From a virus, in UHGV virus genome UHGV-1593167: DNA of 17,056 bases, one strand, 5' to 3'. The notes beneath the pieces are model-generated. The model saw nothing but the letters and a program-made list of their open reading frames with translations. It did no database searches and had not been told where the DNA came from. A program made the translations under genes and the position numbers. This document shows, piece after piece, positions 174 to 16,820 of the stretch; position 1 is the first letter of the stretch, and every line of letters begins with the position of its first letter.

Positions 174-722
174 TCAGCTAGCTGGAAACTTTTTATACAG
201 AGTTGAGAGCCCTACTCCATACGTTTTTGATACGCTTTGTCGTGATTCACCGGTTGCCATCCGCTCCCCCATTTCCCGCCATTGCTCATCCGTGAACTTA
301 GGCCTGCGACCACCAACTCGCCCTTTTGCCCTGGCTACGGCCAGCCCTGCTAAGGTACGTTCGCTATTAAGATCAGATTCATATTGTGCTGCGGAAAGGA
401 TGTTACGAAAGTTATAGCGGCCGCTGGCTGTTTTGAGATCCACGCCATCGGTAATACTGCGGAAGTTGATACCCTTTTCCTGTAACTGCTGGAACATCAA
501 CAGCGCATGCAGAACGTTGCGGCCTATCCTGTCCAGCTTCCAGACCACCAGTTCATCCCCCGGCTGCATAGTGGCGATCAGCCGTTTTAGAACCGGCCGA
601 TTCGATTTCCTCCCGCTGGCATGCTCTTCAAAAATTTTCTCACAACCCGCTGACTTGAGCGCCGTTAGTTGCAATTCAGTGTCCTGGTGGTTTGTTGATA
701 CTCGGGCATAACCGTAAATCAT
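174..722 (-). CDS. pin: Serine recombinase, DNA invertase of the Gin/Hin/Pin/Cin family
   Basis: 182 aa from the internal ATG at 722 (MIYGYARVSTNHQDTELQ...), with catalytic-serine motif YARVST, WKLDRIGR and a C-terminal HTH (GVGLSTLYKK). SD AGGAG lies 7 nt upstream of this ATG; the longer track ORF (to 881) has no plausible start. Sits next to an invertible fibre segment. Confidence 0.9.
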   Translation of the reverse strand: MIYGYARVSTNHQDTELQLTALKSAGCEKIFEEHASGRKSNRPVLKRLIATMQPGDELVVWKLDRIGRNVLHALLMFQQLQEKGINFRSITDGVDLKTASGRYNFRNILSAAQYESDLNSERTLAGLAVARAKGRVGGRRPKFTDEQWREMGERMATGESRQSVSKTYGVGLSTLYKKFPAS

Positions 723-726
723 GGGA

Positions 727-753
727 TTTCTCCTGTTATGAAAACAGGAGAAA
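727..753 (-). promoter_or_regulatory. Perfect 11-bp inverted repeat (TTTCTCCTGTT / AACAGGAGAAA, 5-nt spacer) in the invertase leader; the 3' arm contains the invertase SD
   Basis: 727-737 is the exact reverse complement of 743-753. On the pin mRNA this gives an 11-bp stem with a 5-nt loop ending 4 nt before the AUG and containing AGGAG. Confidence 0.5.
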
Positions 754-781
754 CGGCGAAGCATCACCAGATTTTTGATGG

Positions 782-807
782 TTATAAAAAAGGTTGGTTT
801 GGGAGAA
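782..807. other. Invertase crossover site 1 (hix/gix-like 26-bp site) TTATAAAAAAGGTTGGTTTGGGAGAA, core TT at 794-795
   Basis: Resembles recalled hix/gix sites (half-site TTATCAAAAACC, 2-bp central core). Shares 15 bp (TTGGTTTGGGAGAAG) in inverted orientation with the site at 2659-2684. Lies about 60 bp upstream of the invertase gene. Confidence 0.7.
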
Positions 808-1284
808 GGCTCTGCATTACCTGTTGGTGTCCCTGTTCCGTGGCCTTCCGCCACTCCGCCAACAGGCTGGCTGAAATGCAACGGTGCGGTTTTTTCTGCT
901 GAAGAATACCCGGAACTGGCAAAGGCTTATCCAACAAATAAATTGCCTGATTTACGTGGTGAGTTTATTCGTGGTTGGGATGACGGGCGCGGTATTGACG
1001 CGGGGCGCGAAATTCTGTCTGCTCAGGGGGATGCTATTCGTAATATAACCGGCACATTTGGTAATGGACAAACCGAAGCTAATGCGGCTATTAGCTTTAA
1101 TACAGCGAGTGGTGTTTTTGTAAGTCAATCAGCACTTCGTAATACGATAGGTAACACCACAATCATTCCAAATACCCCAAACAATCCTCATTTAGTCAAT
1201 TTTGATGCTTCAAGAGTAGTGCCAACTGCCTCAAAGAACAGACCAAGAAACATTGCATTTAACTATATCGTGAGAGCAGCATAA
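795..1284 (+). CDS. Silent alternative tail-fibre C-terminal cassette (Sv'-like); promoterless, expressed only as a fusion after inversion
   Basis: Reading frame begins inside crossover site 1 with no independent start signals. Encodes typical fibre C-terminal motifs (LPVGVPVPWPS..., ...RNIAFNYIVRAA). Same codon phase across the core as the fibre gene at site 2. Confidence 0.7.
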
Positions 1285-1886
1285 TGGATAAAGCAATATT
1301 AAATAGTGGACTTGTTGCTACAAAGGCAGGGGATATTACCGTTTATAACTATGATGGTGAAACGCGGGAATATATTTCCACATCAACTGAATATCTTGCG
1401 GTTGGCGTCGGTATCCCGGCATGTTCTTGTTTAGATGCACCAGTTACACATAAAGCTGGTTATACAATTTGCCGTTCAGCAGATTTAAAATCATGGGAAT
1501 ATATGCCAGACCATCGCGGTGAAATCGTTTTTAGCACCGAAACAGGGGAATCAAAAGAAATCACAGCTCCGGGTGATTACCCTGATAATACAACCACTAT
1601 CGCCCCGTTAACGCCATACGATAAATGGGATGGTGAGAAATGGGTGACGGATACCGAGGCACAGCACGGCGCAGCAGTAGATGCAGCAGAAGCACAGCGC
1701 CAGTCGCTGATTGATACTGCAATGGCCTCCATCAGTCTGATTCAGCTGAAATTGCAGGCCGGACGTAAACTAACGCAGGCAGAAACAACCCGCCTTAACG
1801 CTGTGCTGGATTACATTGACGCGGTGACGGCAACAGATACCAGCACCGTGCCGGATGTCATCTGGCCTGAACTGCCGGAGGCGTAG
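1284..1886 (+). CDS. Tail-fibre assembly protein (Tfa/gpG-U family), partner of the silent cassette
   Basis: 200 aa; ATG overlaps the upstream stop (TAATG); C-terminal ...DVIWPELPEA typical of Tfa chaperones; position inside the invertible segment. Confidence 0.75.
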   Translation: MDKAILNSGLVATKAGDITVYNYDGETREYISTSTEYLAVGVGIPACSCLDAPVTHKAGYTICRSADLKSWEYMPDHRGEIVFSTETGESKEITAPGDYPDNTTTIAPLTPYDKWDGEKWVTDTEAQHGAAVDAAEAQRQSLIDTAMASISLIQLKLQAGRKLTQAETTRLNAVLDYIDAVTATDTSTVPDVIWPELPEA

Positions 1887-2298
1887 GCCATTCAATATCT
1901 GGCGCACCGGAAGTATCGACCAGCTCCAGTGCGTCCAGATAATCCAGCCACAAATTATATTGCGCCAGTTCCTCACCTTTCAGACGACCAATAGCCGCTT
2001 TACCAGGCCATTGTTTACTGTTCATATAATCGTTGGCCTGATTAATCAGTTGCTGCTTTTCCAGTTCGGCTGCAGCAATCTGTTCCTCATATGTTGGTGG
2101 TGGAATTTCAGACCATGCAGGAAAACCATTTTCTCCAGCGATACGGATTTTTCCTTTCGGCGGTAATCCGGAAAACTCAATATACACTTGCTCATCAACT
2201 TCAACAGCATCATCTGGCCATGAGTCAGCTTGAGTGTAATCCTCTTTCATCTCCAGCGGATAGAAAGAGTTTGTAGTCGCGGAATATATGTAATTCAT
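1858..2298 (-). CDS. Tail-fibre assembly protein (Tfa/gpG-U family), partner of the currently expressed fibre
   Basis: 146 aa starting MNYIYSATTNSFYP..., C-terminal ...DIEWPTPP; SD GGAG 6 nt upstream of ATG at 2298; 3' end overlaps the convergent tfa by 29 nt. Confidence 0.8.
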   Translation of the reverse strand: MNYIYSATTNSFYPLEMKEDYTQADSWPDDAVEVDEQVYIEFSGLPPKGKIRIAGENGFPAWSEIPPPTYEEQIAAAELEKQQLINQANDYMNSKQWPGKAAIGRLKGEELAQYNLWLDYLDALELVDTSGAPDIEWPTPPAVQAR

Positions 2299-3102: not shown

Positions 3103-3782
3103 TAGAGTATTGTCCCCCATGCTCCAACATCGAACCCGCCGATGTATTCGTTATCCATATCAAACCCAAAGAATTTAGAGCCTTCTGACGGTGTTTCTAC
3201 CGAAGGCGTTTCAACATCACCGGCCCATACGCCAGCTGATTTAACGGTGAGATAGCCCTGTTTGATAGCGGCGATCAGTTCGAGAGACACATCAGAAATA
3301 TCAGTTTCAGGGAAAACCCAGACCGAAATCGTCATGTCCTGGTTGTCGACGATCTGCATCCTCAGGCCTGAGCCTGCGGTAGCAGCGTCAAGGATGGGAG
3401 GCAGAGAGTCGTTCCGACCGTCCCAGTTGTTGATAGCGATTTTCGCTTTCAGAATGATGCGGTACGTCTCATCGCTTAGCGTCGTATAGCCAGAATCAGG
3501 ATCATATGGCCCTTGCCAGATGCCCTGGTCATACCCAAGCCCGTCAGTGTCCCAGCTGAAATAAACTCCGCTAATTGGCTGGCTGACTATGCGACTGCGT
3601 CCGATCCACAGACCGAGGATGTCGAGCTGTACACCGACAGCAGTATCGATATCGAAGGCTGTTATAAGCCCTGACATAGCGCTGGACACATCAATCAGCG
3701 GGCGGGTGCTCAGATCTATATGGTCAAAAAAGAGTGGCTTGGTAGCGTGGTAGTTAGTGATCAGTTCGGTGTATTTGCTCAT
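3102..3782 (-). CDS. Baseplate/tail protein, Mu gp48 / P2 gpI-like (DUF2313-like)
   Basis: 226 aa; sits between the J-like gene and the tail fibre; ATGA overlap with upstream gene; family recalled, not searched. Confidence 0.6.
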
Positions 3783-4978
3783 GAGGTCACCGTGATACTG
3801 ATATTCGCGGTGCTACAGGACGCTGAAGCATCATAGGCAATATCAATGTTTGATGCCGATACGCTGCCAGACGACTTACCGATCAGCAGGTCGGTAATAT
3901 CGTAATAGCGGGCATTCCCGCCGCTCACAACGCCGAGGTTTGCCGGGGAATAAATACGGCTCAGCAGAACGTCGTCGCCAATTGTTAGGCCATTTATATA
4001 ATCGGCAACAGCCTGTTTAATCTGCTCGCCGATTTGAGAGGTATAGCCGGTAAAAACTTTCAGGGTAATGGCTACGAAAATTGGCACATCGGTAGAGCGC
4101 GAAAAACTGATGACGTGAGGATTACCATAAGTATCCGGCACTGTGACAGAAGTTTTACCGTAAGTTGCGGTTCCCTGCCCTTTATTCCCCCTGATGGTCT
4201 GGGCTATCTCGGTAACATCCCCTCCATCGACGATGGCGGAAATAGAGTGTGGCGGCAGCCCGTTGCTGTCGGTTGCCCCAGTGTCGTTCTCATATAGTTT
4301 GTGACGTGTCACGCCAGCAACATTAGCGATAGCACCGTCGACACCTTCAAACGGTGTGATCGATGGTAGCGCGACGCTTTGCCCCTGCCGAATGCGCAGC
4401 TCTGCGTCGGTTTCGGCTGGTGAACCGACAGTAGCCGCAACTGGATTGGTTACCGACACCCAACCTCGGGTCGGGGTGTTGATAGTGGTAATAGTCCCGG
4501 CCAGCGCCGCAACCGAACCGCTATTCGCACATGTGGCCGTCACCAGCACAGTACCATCAACGCCGATCGCCACACTCGCTGGAAAATTCCAGATAATGCC
4601 GTTTTTATCCCGTGCGGAGCCATTCGTGATAGTCGTGCCTGCCGTACCGGTTAACAGAAGGTCAGCAGTAGAGTTTGTCGCTACTTTTCGCGTGATCCCG
4701 TTAATTTTCACATTGTTGCTAAGCGCTGCGGCCTGCGCTGTCGTCGGTGAAAAAGAGTTGTAGATCTCGATAGCGGTATTGTTAGCGTCATGCACCGCAA
4801 GAGCCACCAGCGCGACCATTTGCCCATCTTTGCTGTCTGGTTCGAGGTAGGCATCACTACCGTAAATCTGCCTGAAATAGCTGGTCAGTGTATCAAGGAT
4901 TGTCTGGTAATCAGGCGCACTAATCCCCTGGGCGGTTACCGTTGCCGATAGCCCCAGCGTGTCGAGGTTCAAAGCCAT
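3779..4978 (-). CDS. Baseplate J-like protein (Mu gp47 / P2 gpJ family)
   Basis: 399 aa; size and position after the W-like gene; family recalled from sequence character. Confidence 0.7.
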   Translation of the reverse strand: MALNLDTLGLSATVTAQGISAPDYQTILDTLTSYFRQIYGSDAYLEPDSKDGQMVALVALAVHDANNTAIEIYNSFSPTTAQAAALSNNVKINGITRKVATNSTADLLLTGTAGTTITNGSARDKNGIIWNFPASVAIGVDGTVLVTATCANSGSVAALAGTITTINTPTRGWVSVTNPVAATVGSPAETDAELRIRQGQSVALPSITPFEGVDGAIANVAGVTRHKLYENDTGATDSNGLPPHSISAIVDGGDVTEIAQTIRGNKGQGTATYGKTSVTVPDTYGNPHVISFSRSTDVPIFVAITLKVFTGYTSQIGEQIKQAVADYINGLTIGDDVLLSRIYSPANLGVVSGGNARYYDITDLLIGKSSGSVSASNIDIAYDASASCSTANISITVTS

Positions 4979-5332
4979 TTATGCCTCGCTTGTTACAGTC
5001 GTCTGGCCGTAGATTGTGTCAATGGAGGAAGTGAAGGTGACGCGACGGCTGGTGCCGTCATAATTGGTATCGAAGGAAAGAATCGACAGAACGCCCGGTG
5101 TATCCTGTATGCGTTCGCGTATGGCCAGGATGTAGACATCTGATCGCTGCTTCCCAAGCACTGACTGAACATACGGCGTGCCTTCCGTCAGATCGAGAAA
5201 CCACTGACCGCGCCACAGCTCGAAACGGGTTTTTACGGCCTGGGCGACACATTCCGGACTGTCGATAAGGAAAGTATCGTCACCCTGGCCGAAAGTGTAA
5301 TCGCCTTCAGTATCTTCGCGACGGTATCGCAT
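4979..5332 (-). CDS. Small baseplate protein, Mu gp46 / P2 gpW-like (gp25-like)
   Basis: 117 aa; TAATG coupling with the upstream spike gene; position between spike and J-like genes. Confidence 0.6.
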   Translation of the reverse strand: MRYRREDTEGDYTFGQGDDTFLIDSPECVAQAVKTRFELWRGQWFLDLTEGTPYVQSVLGKQRSDVYILAIRERIQDTPGVLSILSFDTNYDGTSRRVTFTSSIDTIYGQTTVTSEA

Positions 5333-6072
5333 TATTGCGGCCCTCCGGTAGTTCCCCCGCCAGTCTGTACTCCGCCATGTTTATGCGTGGCGACACTGAT
5401 ACCAGAAGCTGTTACGTCATTCGTTACCGTCACCGGCCCAAGCATCGTCGCAGTACCGCCGCTTTCTCCCATTCCCTGAGACAGGTTACCGTTAATCGTT
5501 ACGTTGCCGTTCAGCGTGATAGTCGGGGATGTGATTGTCGTTCCACCCTCAGCCGTAGCCGTAAGCTTGCCCGGCGTTTTAACGGTGATGTTATGCCCTG
5601 CTGCGACCTCTACGAACGCCGAGCCATCATCGGTTCGCAGCTGCGCGGCGCTGGTACTGATACCGCTGATTTTCTGCGCTTGCGACTGCGGGCCAACGAT
5701 GGCGAACGCATCAGATAAGTCATGCTGGCGCGGGTCGACGGTCTCCTGAACGCCGCCGCTCTGCCACCAGAAATCGATGCAACGGTCGGCAAAGATCAGC
5801 AGGCACTCGTCGCCTTCTTTTACCGGAAAGGTCAGCGTGCAACCGCCGCCGCGCGGGAAGATAACCGGCACATCCACCAGCGGTTTTAATTCGGTGGAGC
5901 CATCGCCAACAATACCGCGAAGCGCTACCTCTACTGTGCAGGTAACAGTGTCAGGATCGAACGACTGAATGATGCCGGGCATCGCTACGCGCATCTGGGT
6001 AGACACCGAATCGACAATGGCCTGCGCGGTCTGCTGCTCACCGCCGATCTGTGATTGAGTTGGAATTGGCAT
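5332..6072 (-). CDS. Baseplate assembly protein V / central spike
   Basis: 246 aa; N-terminal V-type domain and Gly/Thr-rich C-terminus (...HKHGGVQTGGGTTGGPQ); SD GGGGG 7 nt upstream of ATG 6072. Confidence 0.7.
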   Translation of the reverse strand: MPIPTQSQIGGEQQTAQAIVDSVSTQMRVAMPGIIQSFDPDTVTCTVEVALRGIVGDGSTELKPLVDVPVIFPRGGGCTLTFPVKEGDECLLIFADRCIDFWWQSGGVQETVDPRQHDLSDAFAIVGPQSQAQKISGISTSAAQLRTDDGSAFVEVAAGHNITVKTPGKLTATAEGGTTITSPTITLNGNVTINGNLSQGMGESGGTATMLGPVTVTNDVTASGISVATHKHGGVQTGGGTTGGPQ

Positions 6073-6080
6073 AAAACCCC

Positions 6081-6107
6081 CATAAAAAAACCAGCCGAAG
6101 CTGGTTT
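6081..6107 (-). terminator. Rho-independent terminator-like hairpin on the minus strand, directly upstream of the spike gene
   Basis: Stem AAACCAGC / GCTGGTTT with loop CGAA (6088-6107); on the minus strand it is followed by a run of 7 T (6081-6087 are A on the plus strand). Confidence 0.5.
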
Positions 6108-6294
6108 GGTATCAATTATCTCTTAGTAACTAAGCCACATCAGTGTGAAGTAAGGCTTTTCCGCTGCAATGGCACACATTCACAAGGTGTATTAGGATAT
6201 GTTTGCAACAAGTAAGCATTGAAAATCAATTTCAGCCATGAAGCCGCCATAGAGTGGACCTGCACCATCGCATTATTGACTACAGGAGTAACAA

Positions 6295-6585
6295 ATGGGA
6301 TTTAGATTTCGTAAAAGAATCCGGATTGCGCCCGGACTCGCGATCAACATTAGTAAAAGCGGAGTAAGCACTTCAATTGGTGGTAAAGGTTCCACCATTA
6401 ACATCGGAAAAAAAGGCGTAAAGATGACAAATGGCCTTCCCGGCACGGGGCTGTCGCATACCACTAACCTTTACTCTCCCGGGAAATCGACAGAAAAAAA
6501 ACAACTTACTCATAAGCAAAAAATAATTAGAAACATCCTGTTCGTAATTATTGTGTTTATTATAATTAAAGCTCAATATTTTTGA
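6295..6585 (+). CDS. Small membrane-anchored protein with DUF4236-like N-terminal motif and C-terminal transmembrane helix
   Basis: 96 aa, MGFRFRKRIRIAPGLAINISKSGVSTSIGGKGSTINIGKKG... (family recalled); hydrophobic ILFVIIVFIII near the C-terminus; SD AGGAG 6 nt upstream; opposite strand to the surrounding tail genes. Confidence 0.6.
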   Translation: MGFRFRKRIRIAPGLAINISKSGVSTSIGGKGSTINIGKKGVKMTNGLPGTGLSHTTNLYSPGKSTEKKQLTHKQKIIRNILFVIIVFIIIKAQYF

Positions 6586-6590
6586 CGCAT

Positions 6591-6616
6591 GCCCGCCTAT
6601 CTGGCGGGCTATTTTA
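6591..6616. terminator. Bidirectional terminator-like hairpin between convergent genes
   Basis: Stem GCCCGCC / GGCGGGC with loop TATCT (6591-6609), followed by a T-rich tract on the plus strand and an A/T-rich tract on the minus strand. Confidence 0.55.
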
Positions 6617-6944
6617 CTTTTCGGCAGTCGTATGTTGCATACTGACGCGGCGAATCCATGCTGGCTTGCAGCCACTGAGCATTCAGGATTGCTTTACCAT
6701 TACGGCCAATAAACTCCATTCCTACCCATCGCCCTGGTTGATTGGTCGCTATGCGCCATTCAATTTTGACGTTGTTATAATCACCGTCATTTTTAAGAAA
6801 TGTCACTTTTTGCGATTCAGGTTTAGCTCCGTTTACGCGAGCGAAACCATCATCAGCCCAATGGATTTTGAAATCACCACACTGAGAATCAGCAATAGCT
6901 TGGAAAGAAAATAATGCTGCAATGATAAAAATTACGAGTTTCAC
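6609..6944 (-). CDS. Small secreted protein of unknown function
   Basis: 111 aa from GTG 6944 (SD GAGG 8 nt upstream); signal peptide MKLVIFIIAALFSFQA; two Cys; AT-rich gene. The track's longer start at 6986 lacks an SD and would overlap the hub gene. Confidence 0.55.
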   Translation of the reverse strand: MKLVIFIIAALFSFQAIADSQCGDFKIHWADDGFARVNGAKPESQKVTFLKNDGDYNNVKIEWRIATNQPGRWVGMEFIGRNGKAILNAQWLQASMDSPRQYATYDCRKVK

Positions 6945-6954
6945 GTCCCGTACC

Positions 6955-8019
6955 TCAGTAGTTTGTTTTTTGCATAGCACCAGCATTAACTAAATCACGA
7001 CTGCCACGCGCAAAACACATCAAATCCATGTACCACGCCTGACCTCTGGTGTCGCCAGTATAGTCGATAGCTTTGACGATATAAACGCCATCTGTCGCAA
7101 TGCTGGCAGCCTGTGACGTTGTGCCGGTCAGTGCGCGGTTGCCGTTCTCTTCCGTTTCAGTGATACGCCCGGGCGACTGTGCGATTTCGCTATTGCCGAG
7201 CGCGGCGCGGTACACCGAAGCCTGATCGAGCTGGATAAGACCATTAATGCGGATGTTTGGGTTTATCAGGCACCGCACGTTTACGCCGCCGCCCATTGTC
7301 TGTTGCGGCATACCGATCAGGCCAGTATTGGCATTTAACACAATGGCTTCGTGAATATATTTATCCTCCGGCACCATCTGGACCTGTCCATCCACCAGCT
7401 GCCATGTCGCTTTGCACTGCGCAGCAATATTATCCATCACGTTACGGGTGGATGAGTAAATCGCGCGGCCACGAGGAAACACGGTATCAGGAAAATCGCC
7501 GGTAATGCCCTGTGTCACGCCGAACGCGTTGAAATCCTGCATCGTCGCCCGGTGCAGATCCGCAACGGTATAGCCAGCGGCAAGCGTGGTGATGGTAGTC
7601 GCGTAGAGGAACGCTTCGTGGTTACTGATGGCCTGAATCAGCACCCAGGAATCGGTGATGTTGTCCTTCCCGGTGACGGTGAAGCGAATATCACCGTCAA
7701 ATATCAGGCCGTAGTTCTGACCGTTCACCTGCCCTACCTGGTCTGGTGAAATCTCCCGGGCGACACCAACCTGGCTCGCATCAACATCCGGCGCAATACC
7801 GTCATACCCGGCAATGATGCGAATTTTTGCAAACTCCTGCCCCAGTATCTTGTTCGTGGTATCGGTCGAAAGGTTGTAAATTTTCACGTTTGCCACGCGC
7901 GGCCAGCGTGTATCTGCCCACTCGATCTGGAACGTGACCTTAAAATCAGACAGGGAAATACCCTGCCCGTTCTGGTCCAACAGCTGCAACTCAAAATGGC
8001 GCATCCAGTTAAGAGACAT
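6955..8019 (-). CDS. Putative baseplate hub / tail protein, assigned by position
   Basis: 354 aa; SD AGGAG 5-6 nt upstream of ATG 8019; lies between the tape-measure-like gene and the spike. Family not recognised with certainty. Confidence 0.45.
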   Translation of the reverse strand: MSLNWMRHFELQLLDQNGQGISLSDFKVTFQIEWADTRWPRVANVKIYNLSTDTTNKILGQEFAKIRIIAGYDGIAPDVDASQVGVAREISPDQVGQVNGQNYGLIFDGDIRFTVTGKDNITDSWVLIQAISNHEAFLYATTITTLAAGYTVADLHRATMQDFNAFGVTQGITGDFPDTVFPRGRAIYSSTRNVMDNIAAQCKATWQLVDGQVQMVPEDKYIHEAIVLNANTGLIGMPQQTMGGGVNVRCLINPNIRINGLIQLDQASVYRAALGNSEIAQSPGRITETEENGNRALTGTTSQAASIATDGVYIVKAIDYTGDTRGQAWYMDLMCFARGSRDLVNAGAMQKTNY

Positions 8020-8021
8020 TT

Positions 8022-8327
8022 CTACTCCTGCACGAAAATGAGGTGGCTGTATGTGCCGAGGTTGGTTTTGGTGGGCTCGTCTGGTGCGCCCTTATCGGTC
8101 GCCACCACCAGCGCACCATCAATGCCAAGCTGTGGATATTGTCGTAATAGGTTCACGCCGGTCAGGAGAGGTACGCCAGAAAGAAGCGCAGCACCGCCGC
8201 TATCCATCACGTCCATGATCCAGCCAGCCGCATCGCGCCAGATGATCCTGAGCGTATAGGTGGTATTGCCCAGCAAAACGCGGAACTGCTGATTGTCAGG
8301 AGAAAGCGGTATTTCGTTAAACTGCAT
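8022..8327 (-). CDS. Small phage tail protein, unknown function
   Basis: 101 aa from ATG 8327 (SD GGGGGA 5 nt upstream); coupled to neighbouring genes in the tail operon. Confidence 0.5.
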   Translation of the reverse strand: MQFNEIPLSPDNQQFRVLLGNTTYTLRIIWRDAAGWIMDVMDSGGAALLSGVPLLTGVNLLRQYPQLGIDGALVVATDKGAPDEPTKTNLGTYSHLIFVQE

Positions 8328-8328
8328 A

Positions 8329-8931
8329 TCATCCCCCGAATGCTGATGTAACGCTTCCGCCAAGCTGGCTCAGCAAGGATTCGTTTGGCGGTGTAGTGGA
8401 TTTCGTCCCGGAATTTTGCACCGCCGATGTGCTGACGCCATCCTGCATATCTGATTTATCAGCAACACTAACGCTCTGCGTTTGCGACATGATCACTTCA
8501 CGCAGGGTAAGCGTGCAGTTCAGCACGTTTTCGCTGGTTTTGTCCGTTGTCACCTCGATGGCTCGCACCAGCATATTGCTGTACACCCGCTTTCCGGTCA
8601 CCACATCGAACGGCACCCGAGAGGACTGGAGATCCAGCAGTTGCTGATAGGTCTCTTTCGGGCTTAGTCCGGCGCTGAGGCCGATTGAAGATGTATCAAT
8701 GAAGTCCAGCAACGAACCGCCACCAGCGAAGCCGCATTCCATTGTGACTTCGCTGGGGCGCTTATACGCATGATCGGCGATGAAGCCCGAAGCGCTATTC
8801 GTTGTTGGCTTCTCCACCGGGTGCTCAGTAATTTCGAGCGCATCAGAATGCTTTTCGGAGACGACCACGCTGGGGATCAGCAGGCCAATTCGCCGGGATT
8901 GCTGGCGAAAAATCGCTGATAAAATATCCAT
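8329..8931 (-). CDS. Phage tail protein, unknown function
   Basis: 200 aa; ATG 8931 overlaps the stop of the upstream gene (TAATG). Confidence 0.5.
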   Translation of the reverse strand: MDILSAIFRQQSRRIGLLIPSVVVSEKHSDALEITEHPVEKPTTNSASGFIADHAYKRPSEVTMECGFAGGGSLLDFIDTSSIGLSAGLSPKETYQQLLDLQSSRVPFDVVTGKRVYSNMLVRAIEVTTDKTSENVLNCTLTLREVIMSQTQSVSVADKSDMQDGVSTSAVQNSGTKSTTPPNESLLSQLGGSVTSAFGG

Positions 8932-10532
8932 TATCTCGGTCCTGCGGGGAGTTGCTGGGTTAACTGTGAATTCACGCCCTTTTGACGATCAACAGTCAAA
9001 CGGGCAGCCTCGCGCGGATCGGAAACGCCGTGGATGTTAATATTCGTTTCCTGCTGAATCACCGGGGCGCTGGTGGGCATGTTGCTCATTACTTTCGGAA
9101 TGTAGTTACGCGTTTCCTGCGGCATTAACCCCATGCCATAGCGCTTAACATTCCCGATCCCCCAGTTATATGATGCCAGTGCTTTGCTAAGGTCTCCACC
9201 GTTCTGCCGCAACAGCTGGCTGAGGTACTTAGCTGCGGCCTGAGCTGACTTTTGCGGGTCGAATACATCGTTTCCGCGAAGGCCCATGTCGCGCGCCGTA
9301 CCATCCATAAACTGAAACAGACCTTTCGCGCCTGCGCCGGACATGGCGAACTGGTTACCACCTGACTCGGTTATCGCCACACTTTTCAATAGACCAGCTG
9401 GAAGTTGATAAAGCGACTCAAGTTTATTGAACATTGGCCCCATCCAGTCGAGCAATACTTTGCCCTGGGCTGTGGCCCGTGGACGTTTGACTGATTGCGC
9501 AAACTGGGAGGGGTCACCCGATATATTTGGAGAGATTTCAGCAGCTCCAGCCGGGGAGAAAAATAAATTACCGATTTTGGCAATCCCGTCTGAGATTTTT
9601 TCAAGATAACCATTAGCAGCCTGCTGACGGTTTTTTATTTCATCTCTTTCATGCGGGGCAATTTCATTACTACGAACATGCTGTTCCGCCCCGGGAATGT
9701 CAGGCTGAACATTATCGCCATAAACGACGCCATTGCTTTGCGCCTGACGAATAATCTTACCTGGGCCACCATGCAGCCAATCCATCCATGCGGGCCATTC
9801 TCTTACCTCGCTAACATCTTTTCGCCCAAGGTCGGTTTTGATGCCAACCGTAGCAAGAGCATCACCAATGTTCCTTTTGGTATAGTCCAAAGATGATTTA
9901 GCACTGGCTTTTATGTTTTCACGATCTGAAACCAGGTAACCAGCATACGCTCCCCATAATTTAAGCCATGGAGGTATCGGAAGACCGGATATTTTTGCGA
10001 ATGCTCCCAATACTTTTGTTACCCATACCCCAGCGATGAAAGTAGCCAAAATTTCCAGCGAGTTCTGCCATCCACCAACAGAATCTTTCAGCCCCAGAAG
10101 CTTATCGCGCAGCCAGAGAATTGCCTTTTTCGCCTTTTCTATTGCAGGCTCCCACTTGGACCAGTCAATCAGGCTTTTACCGCCTTCTTTCCACGTCTGA
10201 TAATCGTCATAGAGTAATCCGATCGCCAGAATCAGCGTGGTGATAATTCCAATCGGGGATTTCAGGAACGCAGAATTAAGCAGACGCCATGCGACAAGTA
10301 GAGCACCGAATATTTTCAGCAGATTTTTACTGCCATCGTCAAGACGCTTCCACCAGTCGATGACAGAGCCAGCGCCCTGTATCAGCCGCCACGCCATTCT
10401 CGTGAATGCGTTCGCAAGCCAGATCACGCCTTTAATAACTCTGGTCAGCGTCTCTTCAATCTTCGGGAAATTGTCGAGGATGCGCCGCCGCAGGCTGTCC
10501 AGCGAACCAGCCAGGCCACCAGCGAAGTTCAC
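8931..10532 (-). CDS. Tape-measure-like tail protein fragment with hydrophobic segments and a C-terminal lytic transglycosylase (SLT) domain; probably 5'-truncated
   Basis: SLT motifs (ITESGGNQ..., GLFQF, SYNWG); hydrophobic helices typical of tape-measure C-terminal regions. The ORF opens with GTG directly after an in-frame stop and abuts an oppositely oriented operon. Confidence 0.55.
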   Translation of the reverse strand: MNFAGGLAGSLDSLRRRILDNFPKIEETLTRVIKGVIWLANAFTRMAWRLIQGAGSVIDWWKRLDDGSKNLLKIFGALLVAWRLLNSAFLKSPIGIITTLILAIGLLYDDYQTWKEGGKSLIDWSKWEPAIEKAKKAILWLRDKLLGLKDSVGGWQNSLEILATFIAGVWVTKVLGAFAKISGLPIPPWLKLWGAYAGYLVSDRENIKASAKSSLDYTKRNIGDALATVGIKTDLGRKDVSEVREWPAWMDWLHGGPGKIIRQAQSNGVVYGDNVQPDIPGAEQHVRSNEIAPHERDEIKNRQQAANGYLEKISDGIAKIGNLFFSPAGAAEISPNISGDPSQFAQSVKRPRATAQGKVLLDWMGPMFNKLESLYQLPAGLLKSVAITESGGNQFAMSGAGAKGLFQFMDGTARDMGLRGNDVFDPQKSAQAAAKYLSQLLRQNGGDLSKALASYNWGIGNVKRYGMGLMPQETRNYIPKVMSNMPTSAPVIQQETNINIHGVSDPREAARLTVDRQKGVNSQLTQQLPAGPR

Positions 10533-10553
10533 TCAGAAAAACTGGAGAACATC

Positions 10554-10760
10554 ATGGTTCATCAGCACTACGGTACACAGACAGTAAACCGCGGCGCAGT
10601 TCAGCCGGGGATGCTCGTCAAACACAAAGACTCAACCTGGACGGCATCAGCTAACGCTCGCGGACGTTTGTATCTGCATCGCGGCGTAGAAATGACTTAC
10701 ACCAAGGATTTGCTGGTTGAAGTTTATCTGAACGGTCTGGGGCATGGACTCAGCCACTAG
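10554..10760 (+). CDS. Small protein (68 aa), first gene of the early operon; possible Kil-type protein
   Basis: SD GGAG 6 nt upstream of ATG; occupies the position that kilR holds upstream of ydaE-racC-recE in Rac. Identity is inference from synteny only. Confidence 0.4.
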   Translation: MVHQHYGTQTVNRGAVQPGMLVKHKDSTWTASANARGRLYLHRGVEMTYTKDLLVEVYLNGLGHGLSH

Positions 10761-10771
10761 CGGAGGATGTC

Positions 10772-10933
10772 ATGTTAGACAAGAAATGCGGATATTGCGG
10801 CAAGCCGGTTAAAACGGAGGAAGTAATCAAGAGCACCCTTCTCTATCGCAACGGCTCACAGCTGGCGCGCAAAGAAAAAGAGTATTGCTCCAAACGTTGC
10901 GCTTCGCACGACCAGATGGCTCACGAAGGCTAA
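10772..10933 (+). CDS. Small zinc-ribbon protein (53 aa; CxxC...CxxxC), not in the ORF track
   Basis: MLDKKCGYCGKPVKTEEVIKSTLLYRNGSQLARKEKEYCSKRCASHDQMAHEG; SD GGAGG 4 nt upstream of the ATG; four Cys at positions 6, 9, 39, 43. Confidence 0.5.
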   Translation: MLDKKCGYCGKPVKTEEVIKSTLLYRNGSQLARKEKEYCSKRCASHDQMAHEG

Positions 10934-11071
10934 CGTAAAACCCGCGCAAGGCGGGATTCACGTCCGGTGCCACCGACCAAAGTTACACCGGAATTTATAC
11001 CAAACCAAAAAACATCCAATGGGCGCTATCTCTGGCCCGGGGATTCTAACACTCAAAAAAGAGGATCTCAC

Positions 11072-13981
11072 ATGGAATTTTTCCATCTGATAAAAGCCAG
11101 TCAGAAGTCTGGCAAGAAAGATGCAGTGATTTGGTTCACTGCGAAAAGTGTAGCGCGCGCCAATCTCCAACTCGATGTGGCACTGGAAGAAGCCGGAATT
11201 GAAGAAACTGGCCGCGGTAAAGATTATGCCAAACCAATCCGCACCGATTTCCCGGTATATGACGACCTGCCGGAAGAAGGCGCAGTGGATTACACCTGGT
11301 GCGAACGCTACGAACTGCAGAACGATGACCGCACCTGGCTGCCAAAAGTCACAGCTGAAAACTCTGACGAGAAAACGGCTCAGACCGTTGATAGTCACAT
11401 AACTACTGAGTCAACGCTGCCAGAAACCGCTGGCATCACGCTGGACGAACACGACGACGACTCAACCCTCTACCCGGTAGTGCAGATGCCGTTTCGTAAG
11501 CAACTGCTTTCCCAGTTCACCGCCGACGAACTGCGCCACCACGTAACCCGCGAAGAGTACGAAGCTATCGGCGCGCTGGAGATGGACACTGATAACAGTT
11601 ACGTCCAGAACTTGCTGTTAGCTGCTGAGAACTGCCCGGAAGTGAAGGGTTACGACACCAAAGACCTGTGGCGCTACACCGATGCCATTCGCAAAGTGTT
11701 CAGCCAGGACAAGCGTCACGAACTCGCGCTGGTACTCCGTTTCACCAGAATGTGGGCGGCTACTGATTACATTGACCGTGGCATCCTGGCGCGTGAATGG
11801 GCTGCCGGTAATCACATCAGTAGTGTTCAGCGTACTGATTCCGGAACCAATGCCAACGGCGGTTACGTCACTGACCGTGGACCTGATACATACCATACCC
11901 TTGACACTCTCGATTTAGAGATTGCATGTGCCCTTCTGCCTATGGACTTCAACCACTTCGAGATCCCGGGCAGCATTCTTCGTCGCGCTAAAGAAATCGT
12001 GACCAAAAAAGAAGAACCGTGGAAATCATGGAGCAGCATTCTGCGCAATCAACCCGGCGTTCTTGGCGTTAACCGCACAGCTATTTTTAACCTGATACGT
12101 ATCGCGCCGGAAAATATTCATCTAACTCCTGTCGCTCACCTGGAGTTTGTTAACCGGACCATGACTGCTGCGTTTAATGCTGCTGTTGAGTTATTGCCAT
12201 TGCATGAAGCTGAGCCCGCAACACAGGAAATTCCCCAACCTGAAAGTAAGGAGTCTCCACGCAAACCCTTCTGCACTCACGAAGAGAACCTGCAACGCGT
12301 ACGTGAAGAAGAAGCACGCCGCCGCGCAGAGGAAGCGACAGCACAACCACATAAAGCCGAACAAGAACTGGTTAAAAATGTCGGCAACGGAATATTCGAT
12401 GTTACGGCTTTACTGCAGAACTCAGCAACTCATGGCACGAAACAGGCTACGGAAACCACCAGCAATGTGCAGGTTCAAGAAACTGTCAGTGATGAAAAAA
12501 ATGTTGGTAATGAAATGCAGTCAGGCGAAAGCAGTCTGGAAACTGGTGAAGAGTCACATCCCGGCCAGCAGGCCGATGTAAACCAAAATACGGAATCTGT
12601 CGCTCAAAATAGCGATTCTGTAAACCAGACTGAACCAGTTTTGGCACACGTCGAGCCAGAGGCGCAATCTGACGAACAAGCTGTTTTTTACCCCGATTAC
12701 TTCGAGCCTGGGCGCTATGAAGGTCTGCCGAACGAGGTTTACCACGCTGCCAACGGCATCAGTTCCACCCAGGTAAAAGATGCGCGCGTTTCGCTGATGT
12801 ACTTCAATGCGCGCCACGTTGAGAAAACCATCGTCAAAGAGCGCTCCTCAGTGCTGGACATGGGAAACCTGGTACATGCGCTGGCGTTGCAGCCAGAACA
12901 GCTCGATGAAGAATTTAGCGTTGAACCCGTAATTCCGGAAGGTGCATTTACCACCACGGCAACGATCCGCGCGTTTATTGATGAGTACAACGCCAGCCTG
13001 CCAGCGCAACTGAGCGCAGACGATATCAAAGCTTTGCTGGATGAATACAACGCCACCCTGCCAGCGCTGGTGCCGCTGGGCGCTAGCCTGGATGAAACGG
13101 CGCAGAACTATATGGCGCTGCCAGCTGAATTCCAACGTATCGATGCAGATCAGAAGAAGACAGCAACAGCAATGAAGGCGTGCATCAAAGAGTACAACGC
13201 CACCCTGCCAGCGCAGATTAAAACCAGCGGCAGCCGCGACGCACTACTCGAACAACTTGCGATTATCAATCCTGACCTGGTCGCGCAGGAAGCTCAGAAG
13301 CTGCAACCGCTGAAAGTCTCTGGCACGAAGGCCGATCTGATTCAGGCCGTGAAGGCAGTCAAACCAGATGCAGTGTTCGCCGACGAGCTGCTCGATGCTT
13401 GGCGCAACAACCCGGAAGGGAAAGTGCTGGTTACCCACCAGCAACTTGCCACCGCGCAGGCAATTCAGTCAGCACTGCTCTCGCACCCGACCGCAGGCAT
13501 GCTGCTAACCCACCCGAGCCGCGCCGTTGAGGTGAGCTACTTTGGCTTTGACGAGGAGACGGGACTGGAAGTTCGTGTGCGCCCTGACCTTGAGATCGAC
13601 CTAGACGGCGTGCGTATCGGTGCTGACCTGAAAACCATCAGCATGTGGAATGTTAAGCAGGAAAGCCTGCGCGCCAGGCTACACCGGGAAATTATTGAAC
13701 GTGATTATCACCTGAGCGCGGCTATGTACTGCGAAACCGCAGCGCTGGATCAGTTCTTCTGGATTTTCGTCAACAAAGACGAGAACTACCACTGGATCGC
13801 CATCATCGAGGCATCCGCTGAACTACTGGAGCTGGGTATGCTCGAGTACCGCAAAGCGATGCGCAATATCGCAACCGGATTCGACACAGGTGAATGGCCA
13901 GCGCCAATCACTGCTGACTACACCGACGAACTGAACGACTTCGACCTGCGCCGCCTTGAAGCGCTGCGTACTCATGCATAA
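11072..13981 (+). CDS. recE: Exodeoxyribonuclease VIII (RecE) homologue: RecE-type N-terminal region, acidic disordered linker, C-terminal PD-(D/E)XK nuclease domain
   Basis: 969 aa from ATG 11072 (SD GAGG 8 nt upstream; the track's start at 10967 has none). N-terminal and C-terminal blocks match recalled Rac RecE (e.g. NEVYHAANGISSTQVKD; RPD...GADLKT). Confidence 0.75.
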   Translation: MEFFHLIKASQKSGKKDAVIWFTAKSVARANLQLDVALEEAGIEETGRGKDYAKPIRTDFPVYDDLPEEGAVDYTWCERYELQNDDRTWLPKVTAENSDEKTAQTVDSHITTESTLPETAGITLDEHDDDSTLYPVVQMPFRKQLLSQFTADELRHHVTREEYEAIGALEMDTDNSYVQNLLLAAENCPEVKGYDTKDLWRYTDAIRKVFSQDKRHELALVLRFTRMWAATDYIDRGILAREWAAGNHISSVQRTDSGTNANGGYVTDRGPDTYHTLDTLDLEIACALLPMDFNHFEIPGSILRRAKEIVTKKEEPWKSWSSILRNQPGVLGVNRTAIFNLIRIAPENIHLTPVAHLEFVNRTMTAAFNAAVELLPLHEAEPATQEIPQPESKESPRKPFCTHEENLQRVREEEARRRAEEATAQPHKAEQELVKNVGNGIFDVTALLQNSATHGTKQATETTSNVQVQETVSDEKNVGNEMQSGESSLETGEESHPGQQADVNQNTESVAQNSDSVNQTEPVLAHVEPEAQSDEQAVFYPDYFEPGRYEGLPNEVYHAANGISSTQVKDARVSLMYFNARHVEKTIVKERSSVLDMGNLVHALALQPEQLDEEFSVEPVIPEGAFTTTATIRAFIDEYNASLPAQLSADDIKALLDEYNATLPALVPLGASLDETAQNYMALPAEFQRIDADQKKTATAMKACIKEYNATLPAQIKTSGSRDALLEQLAIINPDLVAQEAQKLQPLKVSGTKADLIQAVKAVKPDAVFADELLDAWRNNPEGKVLVTHQQLATAQAIQSALLSHPTAGMLLTHPSRAVEVSYFGFDEETGLEVRVRPDLEIDLDGVRIGADLKTISMWNVKQESLRARLHREIIERDYHLSAAMYCETAALDQFFWIFVNKDENYHWIAIIEASAELLELGMLEYRKAMRNIATGFDTGEWPAPITADYTDELNDFDLRRLEALRTHA

Positions 13982-13986
13982 GGGGA

Positions 13987-15105: not shown

Positions 15106-15143
15106 CGAGACCGGGAGGGGTAACCCTCCCTCAAGGAGATTAT

Positions 15144-15386
15144 ATGCGACTGATCAATCGAGGAAGTAAGCAATCACCTTTAGCTCGCCAAGCATGCGAC
15201 ATCGCGCTGGCAGCTCACTTGCAAACATATGGCGACTATGGGCGAAGCAAGATGAAAGAGACTTATACGGTGAAGGTTGAAGGCGTGAAAGTCTGGGTGG
15301 AGGTGGTGAACCGAAAGGCGAGCTACGTGGCCACAGCGATGACCGGCATGCGCCGTCTCCGCTCCCTGCCCGGGCAGGTTGGTTGA
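15144..15386 (+). CDS. Hypothetical protein (80 aa) between the annealing-protein gene and the Xis/AlpA-like gene
   Basis: SD AGGAG 6 nt upstream of ATG; co-directional with the early operon; no family recognised. Confidence 0.4.
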   Translation: MRLINRGSKQSPLARQACDIALAAHLQTYGDYGRSKMKETYTVKVEGVKVWVEVVNRKASYVATAMTGMRRLRSLPGQVG

Positions 15387-15427
15387 AAAAGATTTTGAAT
15401 GGCCCGAACGGGCAACTGGAGAGAGCT

Positions 15428-16815: not shown

Positions 16816-16820
16816 TGAAT

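What the first reader, a model, noticed from the sequence alone, without database searches (positions are those of the whole stretch)
6081..6950. AT-rich two-gene insertion (DUF4236-like membrane protein plus small secreted protein) splitting the baseplate operon
Between the hub-like gene and the spike gene, where tail operons are normally tightly coupled, sit two convergent small genes. One (6295-6585, plus strand) has a DUF4236-like N-terminal motif and a C-terminal transmembrane helix; the other (6609-6944) has a signal peptide. They share a bidirectional hairpin terminator and the region is visibly more AT-rich than the flanking tail genes (roughly 30-45% vs about 55% GC by eye). This looks like a moron. 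Neither protein matches a function I recognise, so it is the best candidate here for an uncharacterised envelope-associated exclusion or defence function.
Basis: partly seen in the sequence, partly recalled or inferred. Interest (0 to 1): 0.65.

Follow-up and report, generated by a model that had tools for sequence, protein, structure and literature searches.

The report
Layered accessory genes splitting a baseplate operon
Between the baseplate hub and spike genes of a defective E. coli prophage sit an old, nearly fixed gene for a small exported beta-barrel protein and a recently swapped-in gene for a small DUF4236 inner-membrane protein; they are ordinary in kind (phage "morons" in a cargo hotspot), probably serve the lysogen, and have no tested function.

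Summary
The window holds an AT-rich stretch (42% GC against 53-58% in the flanks) with two convergent small genes between the baseplate hub and the spike.

It is not one two-gene insertion.

- **slot1 (6609-6944, minus).** It is co-oriented with the tail operon and follows the hub gene in 73 of 77 close relatives and in 58 of 79 species-level relatives. These include the plaque-forming phage SEN34 and the wastewater- or sewage-derived phages Mulock, YP3 and RCIP0034. It encodes a signal-peptide protein predicted to be an 8-stranded beta-barrel. The alleles are old and were exchanged by recombination.
- **DUF4236 cassette (about 6096-6608).** It is one of at least 15 alternative cargoes in a hotspot bounded by slot1's stop codon and a conserved intrinsic terminator that abuts the spike start. 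It is present in 22 of 73 relatives.
- **DUF4236 elsewhere.** Small DUF4236 membrane proteins recur as optional genes in tail modules of unrelated phages.

The most likely role is lysogen-expressed envelope proteins that block superinfection. This is inferred, not shown.

Verdict: the moron reading is right for the DUF4236 gene and wrong for the pair. Interest is moderate.

The parts
6955..8019 (-). Baseplate hub gene. It is the upstream anchor of the locus.
   Evidence: PHROG 196 baseplate hub, E 1.3e-83; Pfam E217_GP41. Median identity to 80 IMG/VR relatives is 96%.
6609..6944 (-). slot1: gene for a 111-aa exported protein (PHROG 3443, labelled 'STY1065/STY2022 family' in one RefSeq record). 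The mature protein is about 93 aa and is predicted to be an 8-stranded beta-barrel with invariant Cys22 and Cys107.
6891..6944 (-). Signal peptide of slot1 (residues 1-18, predicted cleavage AIA|DS).
   Evidence: Read from the sequence: K2, the hydrophobic run LVIFIIAALFSF, and A16-x-A18. A16 is invariant in the 8-sequence alignment A1 and A18 is nearly invariant in the 36-sequence alignment A2. Some relatives carry a lipobox instead. No dedicated signal-peptide predictor was available.
6591..6619 (+). Intrinsic terminator of the DUF4236 gene: 7-bp all-GC stem followed by TATTTTACTT. It acts in the + direction only.
   Evidence: On the minus strand the hairpin is followed by ATGCGTCAAAAATA, which has no U-tract.
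6295..6585 (+). Gene for a 96-aa DUF4236 protein. Residues 3-55 form a Gly/Ser-rich six-strand beta-meander, followed by a Lys-rich linker and a C-terminal transmembrane helix (residues about 73-95). Predicted N-in, tail-anchored in the inner membrane.
   Evidence: Pfam PF14020, E 1.8e-20. AlphaFold2 pLDDT 78. Topology is inferred from DUF4236-TM-SH3_3 and DUF4236-FtsK_gamma fusions. 96-100% identical copies occur in 22 IMG/VR loci.
6096..6608 (.). Swap-in cargo cassette ('slot 2' of the hotspot). It carries the DUF4236 gene, its 187-nt upstream region and its terminator.
   Evidence: Homology with loci carrying other cargo stops at 6610-6613 (slot1's stop codon) and resumes at 6090-6107. GC 41.5%.
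6108..6294 (+). Non-coding region upstream of the DUF4236 gene. A promoter is presumed here but was not identified.
   Evidence: No + strand sigma-70 consensus hit. Only the RBS-proximal 25 nt or so are conserved with the Klebsiella, Hafnia and Pluralibacter cassettes. No Rfam match reaches its gathering score.
6081..6107 (-). Conserved intrinsic terminator (AAACCAGC-TTCG-GCTGGTTT plus T7). It ends about 10 nt before the spike ATG and closes the hub-slot1-cargo unit.
   Evidence: An equivalent hairpin plus T-run sits at the same position in every E. coli-type interval surveyed, including cargo-free ones, with at least 5 different but complementary stems. The layout matches the annotated HK97 gp15 moron terminator.
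5332..6072 (-). Spike (gpV-type) gene. It is the downstream anchor of the locus.
   Evidence: Pfam spike N-terminal domain, E 8.9e-42, plus the GpV Apex motif.

Best explanation
The interval holds two independent layers of accessory DNA at the hub/spike junction of a SEN34-like (Brunovirus-type) temperate myovirus prophage. In this window the prophage is a deletion remnant.

Layer 1 is slot1 (6609-6944, minus strand). It was acquired long ago and is now nearly fixed in the lineage. It is transcribed with the hub gene and encodes a Sec-exported beta-barrel of about 93 aa. Its deeply diverged alleles are exchanged by recombination.

Layer 2 is a cassette of about 0.5 kb (about 6096-6608). It carries an opposite-strand gene for a tail-anchored DUF4236 inner-membrane protein with its own terminator. 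It is one of many alternative cargoes at a recombination hotspot. The hotspot is bounded by slot1's stop codon and a conserved intrinsic terminator that abuts the spike ribosome-binding site.

Inferred mechanism, not shown:

- The units work as morons. They are expressed in the lysogen, and the terminators keep that transcription out of the spike and later tail genes.
- Late transcription, probably antiterminated in this phage type with lambda-like regulation, reads through the terminators.
- The products are envelope proteins that protect the lysogen from superinfection. slot1 would act in the periplasm against an incoming tail tip or its murein-lytic tape measure protein. The DUF4236 protein would act at the cytoplasmic face of the inner membrane to block genome entry.
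For: **Architecture (shown)**

- slot1 follows the hub gene on the same strand in 73/77 distinct IMG/VR and GenBank intervals and in 58/79 species-level loci. It is also there at about 30% identity in phages SEN34, Mulock and YP3.
- In several relatives the slot1 start overlaps the hub stop.
- The eight most divergent relatives (hub at most 51% identical) have a direct hub-spike junction. Several loci carry only slot1 between hub and spike. This gives the order: tight junction, then slot1, then cargo.
- Median identity to the window is 68% for slot1, against 96-98% for hub, Dit, plug, W and J. slot1 dS is saturated with dN 0.1-0.29. For the hub, dN is 0.026 and dS 0.18.
- Cassette breakpoints are sharp. 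Alternative cargoes include Phd/Doc, an EACC1-domain protein and several exported or membrane proteins.
- The terminator abutting the spike start is conserved, with compensatory stem variants. Its layout matches the HK97 gp15 moron (PMC3594210).

**Envelope location (predicted)**

- slot1 has a signal peptide and two invariant cysteines.
- Lipoprotein-fused slot1 variants exist. Eight loci carry a non-homologous exported protein at the same position.
- DUF4236 topology follows from fusion architectures.

**Hints toward a conflict function**

- Both genes are AT-rich.
- A tandem array of four full-length slot1 paralogues plus one truncated copy occurs in Serratia aquatilis.
[quoted passage not shown] In Faecalibacterium phage Epona a DUF4236 protein with an internal hydrophobic stretch is encoded between the repressor and the integrase; the C. 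difficile phiCD146 copy, also at the chaperone-tape measure position, has no transmembrane segment.
- Among 149 neighbours of about 41 distinct viral DUF4236 contexts, roughly 37 proteins match tail-tip, tape measure or baseplate families, about 10-12 match lysogeny or regulation families, and about 3-4 match head or packaging families. These totals are summed from the family tallies.
Against: - No function has been tested for either family. PADLOC gives no hit. The literature library has one incidental mention of DUF4236.
- No promoter was detected for the DUF4236 gene, and expression in lysogens is unknown.
- slot1's tight coupling to the hub gene fits late lytic expression as well as, or better than, lysogenic expression.
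- The conserved DUF4236 domain is predicted to face the cytoplasm. That is not the obvious place to meet an incoming tail.
- slot1 alleles show no association with spike alleles (adjusted mutual information, AMI, 0.03, p 0.13). With hub, Dit and plug nearly invariant, a specificity matched to the phage's own tail is not supported at this scale.
- Fold matches are generic for both proteins.
Confidence: 0.6

Rival explanations
1. One reading: the two genes form a single two-gene moron that was inserted together and works as a pair, for example a membrane protein with its secreted partner.
For: The genes are adjacent, convergent and both AT-rich. The same pair is adjacent in Klebsiella phages RCIP0034, GZ7 and RCIP0098.
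Against: - slot1 occurs without DUF4236 in about 70% of close relatives and in 57 of 58 species-level loci that carry slot1.
- DUF4236 occurs with four different slot1 allele clusters and with the 296-aa lipoprotein-fused form.
- DUF4236 also occurs in tail modules that lack slot1 altogether.
- Homology breaks exactly at slot1's stop codon.
Confidence: 0.04
2. slot1 is a lytic-cycle factor rather than a lysogenic-conversion gene. It would be a late-expressed periplasmic protein that the phage needs or benefits from during infection. Examples: it could protect the infected cell or the progeny from the phage's own murein-lytic tail tip, modulate lysis, or stop progeny being lost on cell debris. 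A less likely version is that it takes part in baseplate assembly.
For: - Same strand as the hub gene, with a 10-nt gap here and overlapping stop/start in relatives.
- Near-fixation across the lineage, including phages recovered as virions.
- Purifying selection.
- The tape measure protein carries an SLT domain.
Against: - It is absent from the eight most divergent relatives, which have a direct hub-spike junction, so the baseplate does not need it.
- It is replaced by non-homologous exported proteins in 3 of 77 close and 8 of 79 species-level loci.
- Its composition is foreign to the operon (GC3 37% against 62%).
- Tandem paralogue arrays and allele swapping next to nearly invariant structural genes are unusual for a structural or assembly protein.
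- A cleaved signal peptide argues against incorporation into a tail assembled in the cytoplasm.
Confidence: 0.22
3. The DUF4236 protein is not an entry blocker. It would be a small membrane-active toxin or abortive-infection effector, or a membrane-stress or holin-like modulator. Its beta-meander would oligomerise at the inner face of the membrane.
For: - It is small, tail-anchored and has a basic N-terminus.
- The cytoplasmic beta-meander matches only barrel-wall and sheet fragments, so it may need to oligomerise.
- The same hotspot carries toxin-antitoxin and EACC1 conflict genes.
Against: - No partner antitoxin gene is present in the cassette.
- No PADLOC hit.
- The gene is stably carried at 96-100% identity in many genomes.
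- The family includes non-membrane architectures, such as phiCD146 and FtsK_gamma fusions.
Confidence: 0.18
4. The ORFs are decaying or non-functional passengers of a defective prophage.
For: The prophage in this window is a remnant of about 17 kb. It lacks head, sheath and tube genes, and its tape measure gene is truncated.
Against: - Both ORFs are intact and full length relative to their families.
- slot1 alleles have dN/dS far below 1.
- The DUF4236 domain has 13 invariant positions across 47 homologues.
- Both genes are present in complete prophages and in isolated phages.
Confidence: 0.03

Closest known systems
HK97 gp15 moron (Juhala et al. 2000; Cumby et al. 2012; reviewed in PMC3594210)
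   Same: - A small inner-membrane protein gene is inserted inside a tail operon.
- Its composition differs from the neighbouring genes.
- It is followed by a GC hairpin plus T-run that abuts the next tail gene's start.
[quoted passage not shown]
   Different: - There is no sequence similarity (BLASTP finds nothing at E up to 100).
- gp15 is YebO-like with an N-terminal transmembrane segment. DUF4236 has an N-terminal beta-meander and a C-terminal anchor.
- Here the gene is on the opposite strand.
- Exclusion has been demonstrated for gp15 and is untested here.
Periplasmic or outer-membrane superinfection-exclusion proteins encoded near tail genes: T4 Spackle (inhibits the gp5 tail lysozyme), T5 Llp, phi80/N15 Cor (from my own knowledge; Cor is also covered in PMC3594210)
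   Same: - A small exported protein, or a lipoprotein in some slot1 variants.
- It is encoded beside the genes of the cell-penetrating tail tip.
- The tape measure protein of this phage carries a murein-lytic SLT domain that could be a target.
   Different: - No sequence or fold relationship was found.
- Spackle is helical, whereas slot1 is a beta-barrel.
- No phenotype or target is known for slot1.
Accessory-gene and defence hotspots of temperate phages, such as the P2 Z/fun and tin/old loci (Rousset et al. 2022; bioRxiv 10.1101/2024.10.15.618418)
   Same: - Fixed flanks with highly variable cargo.
- Cargo includes toxin-antitoxin and conflict-system domains (Phd/Doc, EACC1).
- The hotspot lies next to a baseplate gene.
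   Different: - It belongs to a different phage lineage (SEN34-like).
- The hotspot lies inside the baseplate operon, downstream of a quasi-fixed exported-protein gene.
- It is closed by a terminator that abuts the spike gene.
- Most cargo has no recognisable defence domain.
Avidin/streptavidin-like and calycin 8-stranded beta-barrels
   Different: - Biotin-binding residues were not examined.
- Nothing here points to ligand binding.

Membership tests
Moron (independent accessory transcription unit in a phage genome, after Juhala/Hendrix) | Present in some closely related phages and absent from others, between conserved genes. | tested here: met
   - DUF4236 cassette: found in 22 of 73 complete IMG/VR intervals, with sharp breakpoints and cargo-free loci L084 and L086.
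- slot1: met only at depth. It is absent from 8 distant relatives that have a direct hub-spike junction.
Moron | Nucleotide composition differs from the neighbouring genes. | tested here: met
   GC is 41.5% in the cassette and 42.6% in slot1, against 53-58% in hub and spike. GC3 is 37-38% against 62%.
Moron | Has its own terminator. | tested here: met
   6591-6609 plus U-tract serves DUF4236. 6107-6088 plus T7 closes the hub-slot1 unit and is conserved with compensatory stem variants.
Moron | Has its own promoter. | tested here: inconclusive
   No + strand sigma-70 consensus was found upstream of DUF4236. A 9/12 match on the minus strand at 7085-7057 lies upstream of slot1, but the total hit count is near the shuffle expectation. 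The upstream region is poorly conserved across cassettes.
Moron | Expressed from the repressed prophage. | not testable with these tools
   This needs RNA-seq, 5'-RACE or reporter fusions in lysogens.
Pfam PF14020 (DUF4236) | HMM score above the gathering threshold over the full domain. | tested here: met
   73.6 bits against a cutoff of 27, covering residues 3-55 and model positions 1-54 of 55.
PHROG 3443 (phage protein family of unknown function) | Full-length profile match. | tested here: met
   E 3.6e-44, residues 3-111 against profile positions 6-114 of 115.
HK97 gp15 / YebO superinfection-exclusion family | Sequence homology to gp15 or YebO. | tested here: not met
   BLASTP of the DUF4236 protein against HK97 gp15 gives no alignment at E up to 100.
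HK97 gp15 / YebO superinfection-exclusion family | Blocks genome entry of superinfecting phage without blocking adsorption. | not testable with these tools
   This needs plating, adsorption and DNA-entry assays.
Known anti-phage defence systems (PADLOC-DB 2.0) | Match to any defence-system protein model. | tested here: not met
   No hit at E up to 1 for either protein.
   - Pfam, NCBIfam and PHROGs give only families of unknown function.
- BFVD gives nothing at E up to 0.001.
Periplasmic lysozyme or transglycosylase inhibitors (MliC/PliC/Ivy, T4 Spackle) | Homology or specific fold match, plus inhibitory activity. | tested here: inconclusive
   [not shown]

The most novel reading that the evidence does not exclude
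slot1 and its positional analogues would be an unrecognised, lineage-wide class of periplasmic superinfection-immunity proteins. They would be directed at the membrane-attacking tail tip (spike, hub or the SLT-bearing tape measure protein) of SEN34-like myoviruses. They would diversify by allele swapping and by tandem arrays, as polymorphic-toxin immunity genes do.

Separately, tail-anchored DUF4236 proteins would be a widespread new family of inner-membrane genome-entry blockers. They would spread as morons among the tail modules of unrelated temperate phages.
Probability: 0.25. Interest if true: 0.65.

Novelty: new member of a known kind. Interest (0 to 1): 0.45.

Why it matters
If the inferred functions hold, two uncharacterised protein families would gain a role in phage-phage competition.

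- DUF4236 relatives are encoded on more than 545 IMG/VR viral contigs. No functional study of the family was found in the paper library searched.
- The PHROG 3443 barrel, with the non-homologous exported proteins found at the same position, accounts for about 66 of 79 species-level loci of this prophage type across Enterobacterales.

The hub/spike junction of SEN34-like prophages would also become a mapped hotspot for finding small envelope-acting exclusion or defence genes. Most of its cargo is currently unannotated.

If the functions do not hold, this is still a clean example of layered moron acquisition inside a baseplate operon.

Tried and rejected
- **Family searches.** PADLOC and NCBIfam gave nothing useful for either protein.
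- **PDB sequence profiles.** slot1 gave a marginal avidin hit and nanobody noise. DUF4236 gave nothing.
- **Profile search of 1.84 billion representatives.** The slot1 family is small (66 clusters). The only long hits are Gram-positive repeat surface proteins (Flg_new, MucBP), judged spurious.
- **Rfam.** The scan of 5800-7300 gave only sub-threshold hits on the terminator hairpin.
- **Promoter search.** No conserved promoter emerged from aligning the regions upstream of DUF4236 cassettes.
- **Allele association.** slot1 alleles show no association with spike alleles (AMI 0.03, p 0.13). The spike clustering was coarse, so this is weak evidence.
- **Literature.** DUF4236, STY1065 and SEN34 searches returned no functional data, and the SEN34 paper has no virion proteomics.
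- **Rejected readings.**
  - The ATG at 6986 as the slot1 start: homologues align to the GTG at 6944.
  - The minus-strand ORFs 6140-6268 and 6273-6464: they are conserved only as the antisense of conserved DNA.
Full report
**Setting**

The window is an E. coli prophage inserted next to tonB-yciI. It is 99.7% identical across the finding to E. coli WEM25.

The tail and baseplate genes run on the minus strand in this order:

| Gene | Coordinates |
|---|---|
| SLT-domain tape measure protein | 8931-10532 |
| Dit-like protein | 8329-8931 |
| Plug | 8022-8363 |
| Hub | 6955-8019 |
| The finding | 6081-6950 |
| gpV-type spike | 5332-6072 |
| Sheath initiator (W) | 4979-5332 |
| Baseplate J | 3779-4978 |
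| Wedge, tail fibre and an invertible fibre segment | downstream of 3782 |

The lineage is that of Salmonella phage SEN34 (Brunovirus), a plaque-forming temperate myovirus with lambda-like regulatory genes.

**Check of the observation**

- The 96-aa product of 6295-6585(+) matches Pfam DUF4236 at 73.6 bits against a cutoff of 27. AlphaFold2 (pLDDT 78) predicts a six-strand beta-meander, a linker and a C-terminal helix at residues 73-95.
- The 111-aa product of 6609-6944(-) starts at the GTG that homologues and PGAP support. It has a classical signal peptide with predicted cleavage at AIA|DS. AlphaFold2 (pLDDT 83.8) predicts an eight-stranded beta-barrel.
- GC is 42.1% over 6081-6950, against 53.3% in the hub and 57.9% in the spike. 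GC3 is 37-38% against 62%.

Two details need correcting.

- The hairpin at 6591-6609 has a U-tract only on the + strand, so it terminates the DUF4236 gene only.
- A second terminator lies on the minus strand (6107-6088 plus T7) and ends about 10 nt before the spike ATG. Its strength is judged from conservation across relatives; its stem has 8 pairs with 4 GC, against 7 all-GC pairs in the first hairpin.

**The two genes are not one insertion**

The secreted-protein gene, called slot1 here, matches PHROG 3443 over its full length (E 4e-44).

In GenBank phages and E. coli genomes a homologue sits directly after the hub gene on the tail-operon strand. In several cases its start overlaps the hub stop. 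The gene that follows slot1 differs from locus to locus.

A survey covered 80 IMG/VR loci whose hub is at least 83% identical, plus the GenBank loci. It gave 77 distinct hub-to-spike intervals:

- 73 have slot1 in this position.
- 3 have a 241-262-aa lipoprotein in its place.
- 2 (L084, L086) have slot1 and nothing else between hub and spike.

A species-level survey covered 79 GTDB loci across Enterobacterales, with hub identity of 42-96%:

| State of the hub-spike junction | Loci |
|---|---|
| slot1 homologue directly after the hub | 58 |
| Non-homologous protein with a signal peptide or lipobox in that position | 8 |
| Direct hub-spike junction, in the most divergent relatives | 8 |
| Locus truncated just after the hub | 3 |
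| Unresolved | 2 |

slot1 is also present at about 30% identity in SEN34, Mulock and YP3.

The junction therefore evolved in steps. A tight hub-spike junction first gained slot1, which became nearly fixed, and later gained variable cargo.

**slot1 alleles are old and are exchanged by recombination**

- Across the 80 close relatives, median protein identity to the window is 96-98% for hub, Dit, plug, W and J, and 97% for the spike. For slot1 it is 68%.
- Between slot1 alleles, dS is saturated while dN is 0.1-0.29. For the hub, dN is 0.026 and dS 0.18.
- These are anciently diverged alleles under purifying selection that are swapped by recombination. They are not genes evolving fast in place.
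- Some alleles are 296-299-aa fusions in which an extra domain carrying an N-terminal signal sequence, with a lipobox in some loci, precedes the barrel.
- Serratia aquatilis carries four full-length slot1 paralogues plus one truncated copy in tandem. They vary in the N-terminal half of the barrel and are conserved in the C-terminal half.
- The family is small: 66 clusters at 50% identity among 1.84 billion representatives. The named hits of the first search are all Enterobacterales.

**The DUF4236 gene is the real moron**

- Homology between the window and loci with other cargo stops at 6610-6613, which is slot1's stop codon. It resumes at 6090-6107. The cassette is about 0.5 kb.
- It is present in 22 of 73 complete IMG/VR intervals at 96-100% identity, next to slot1 alleles that are only 64-98% identical to the window's. 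It occurs with 4 of 6 slot1 allele clusters.
- About 20 of the roughly 40 complete E. coli genomes that match both the hub and the spike gene carry it.
- Alternative cargoes include:
  - a Phd/Doc toxin-antitoxin pair;
  - an EACC1-domain protein;
  - a protein with an N-terminal hydrophobic segment and a Mu-F-like C-terminal region;
  - several exported or membrane proteins;
  - many proteins with no annotation.

**A conserved terminator closes the unit**

- Every E. coli-type interval, including the cargo-free ones, has a GC hairpin plus a T7-8 run that ends 10-12 nt before the spike ATG. At least five different stems were seen, and each stays complementary.
- There is no room for a promoter between this terminator and the spike gene.
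- The layout is the same as in the prototype HK97 gp15 moron, where the annotated terminator ACCCGC...GCGGGT-T8 abuts the tape measure gene start (PMC3594210).

**DUF4236 proteins elsewhere**

The architecture of a DUF4236 domain, a low-complexity linker and a C-terminal transmembrane segment, 90-110 aa in all, is widespread. Two fusion types place the DUF4236 domain in the cytoplasm: DUF4236-TM-SH3_3, and DUF4236-FtsK_gamma, which has no transmembrane segment.

Contexts sampled:

| Host or phage | Position of the DUF4236 gene |
|---|---|
| Klebsiella, Hafnia, Pluralibacter prophages | Same slot as in the window |
| Leclercia lambda-like prophage | Between the tape measure protein and gpM |
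| Pseudomonas syringae prophage | Between gpK and gpJ |
| Faecalibacterium phage Epona | Between the repressor and the integrase |

At least 545 IMG/VR contigs encode a relative.

One search scanned 149 neighbouring proteins from about 41 distinct viral contexts. Summing its family tallies gives roughly:

- 37 proteins matching tail-tip, tape measure or baseplate families;
- 10-12 matching lysogeny or regulation families;
- 3-4 matching head or packaging families.

There is no sequence similarity to HK97 gp15.

**What the proteins are not**

- PADLOC and NCBIfam give nothing.
- BFVD gives nothing significant.
- PDB sequence profiles give a marginal avidin hit for slot1.
- Rfam finds nothing above threshold.
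- The literature library has no functional study of DUF4236, and no virion proteomics was found for this lineage.

**Interpretation**

Shown:

- Two layers of accessory DNA.
- A cargo hotspot with defined boundaries.
- Two terminators.
- Predicted envelope location for both products.
- Purifying selection on both genes.

Inferred:

- Both genes are moron-type units whose transcription in the lysogen is confined by the terminators.
- Late transcription reads through the terminators. This is plausible because SEN34 has lambda-like regulation.
- The products exclude superinfecting phages.

For slot1, these features fit an exclusion or immunity role best:

- The position is always filled by an exported protein, homologous or not.
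- Alleles are swapped next to nearly invariant structural genes.
- Tandem arrays occur.

Its coupling to the hub gene, however, keeps a late lytic-cycle role open (rival, 0.22).

For DUF4236, recurrence as an optional gene in unrelated tail modules and in a lysogeny module supports an accessory role that benefits the host. A role as a toxin or abortive-infection effector is the main rival (0.18).

**Verdict**

The thing is a known kind, namely morons in an accessory-gene hotspot, built from two uncharacterised families. Interest is moderate. The hotspot and both families can be tested directly by simple plating assays, but nothing here is mechanistically surprising yet.

Noticed in passing
window 10500-16900, junction near 10516-10532: The prophage in this window is a deletion remnant of about 17 kb. 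The tape measure ORF is truncated (533 aa here, 755 aa in WEM25). It is joined directly to YdaE/RecE (10967-13981), RecT (13987-15105), DUF4060 and the integrase (15622-16872). Head, sheath and tube genes are missing. None of the 5,426 complete E. coli genomes spans the junction. In complete relatives the same two regions lie about 27 kb apart.
   Followed up: partly
window 6081-6107 (-); the same position in L010-L089; HK97 locus L195:1599-1623: A terminator hairpin plus T-run abuts the spike RBS in every E. coli-type relative, with at least five compensatory stem variants. Its layout, and partly its sequence (ACCCGC...GCGGGT, T7-8, ATGG), resemble the HK97 gp15 moron terminator in front of the tape measure gene.
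   Followed up: yes
L154:4592-7245 (Serratia aquatilis): Four full-length slot1 paralogues and one truncated copy lie in tandem after the hub gene. Each has its own signal peptide. They differ in the N-terminal half of the barrel and are nearly identical in the C-terminal half.
   Followed up: partly
L030, L031, L036, L048, L054, L060, L064-L066, L089, L118, L130: slot1 variants of 288-299 aa carry an N-terminal signal sequence (a lipobox in L089, L118 and L130; a plain signal peptide in L031) and an extra domain of about 185 aa fused in front of the barrel. In L039, L056 and L063 an unrelated 241-262-aa lipoprotein replaces slot1.
   Followed up: partly
hub-spike intervals of L005, L027, L034, L068, L089, L047, L055 and others: Alternative hotspot cargoes include:

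- Phd/Doc toxin-antitoxin;
- an EACC1-domain protein on the opposite strand;
- a 258-263-aa plus 123-131-aa gene pair whose second protein looks HEPN-like by eye (no Pfam hit);
- a membrane protein with a Mu-F-like Cys-rich C-terminus;
- larger inserts of 2-2.5 kb encoding KilA/ANT-like proteins (judged by eye; these cargo proteins were not scanned against any library).

Most cargo has no annotation.
   Followed up: partly
window 188-2298: There is an invertible tail-fibre segment. A Pin/Hin-type recombinase lies at about 188-736(-), by correspondence with WEM25. Two oppositely oriented tail-fibre C-terminus and assembly-protein sets follow: 775-1284(+) with 1284-1886(+), and 1858-2298(-).
   Followed up: no
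[not shown]
   Followed up: partly
proteins P0100, P0110 (Vibrio, Photobacterium) and P0146: DUF4236 is fused to a transmembrane segment plus a periplasmic SH3_3 domain in 167-aa proteins. In P0146 it is fused to an FtsK_gamma winged helix with no transmembrane segment. Both architectures indicate that the DUF4236 module is cytoplasmic.
   Followed up: partly
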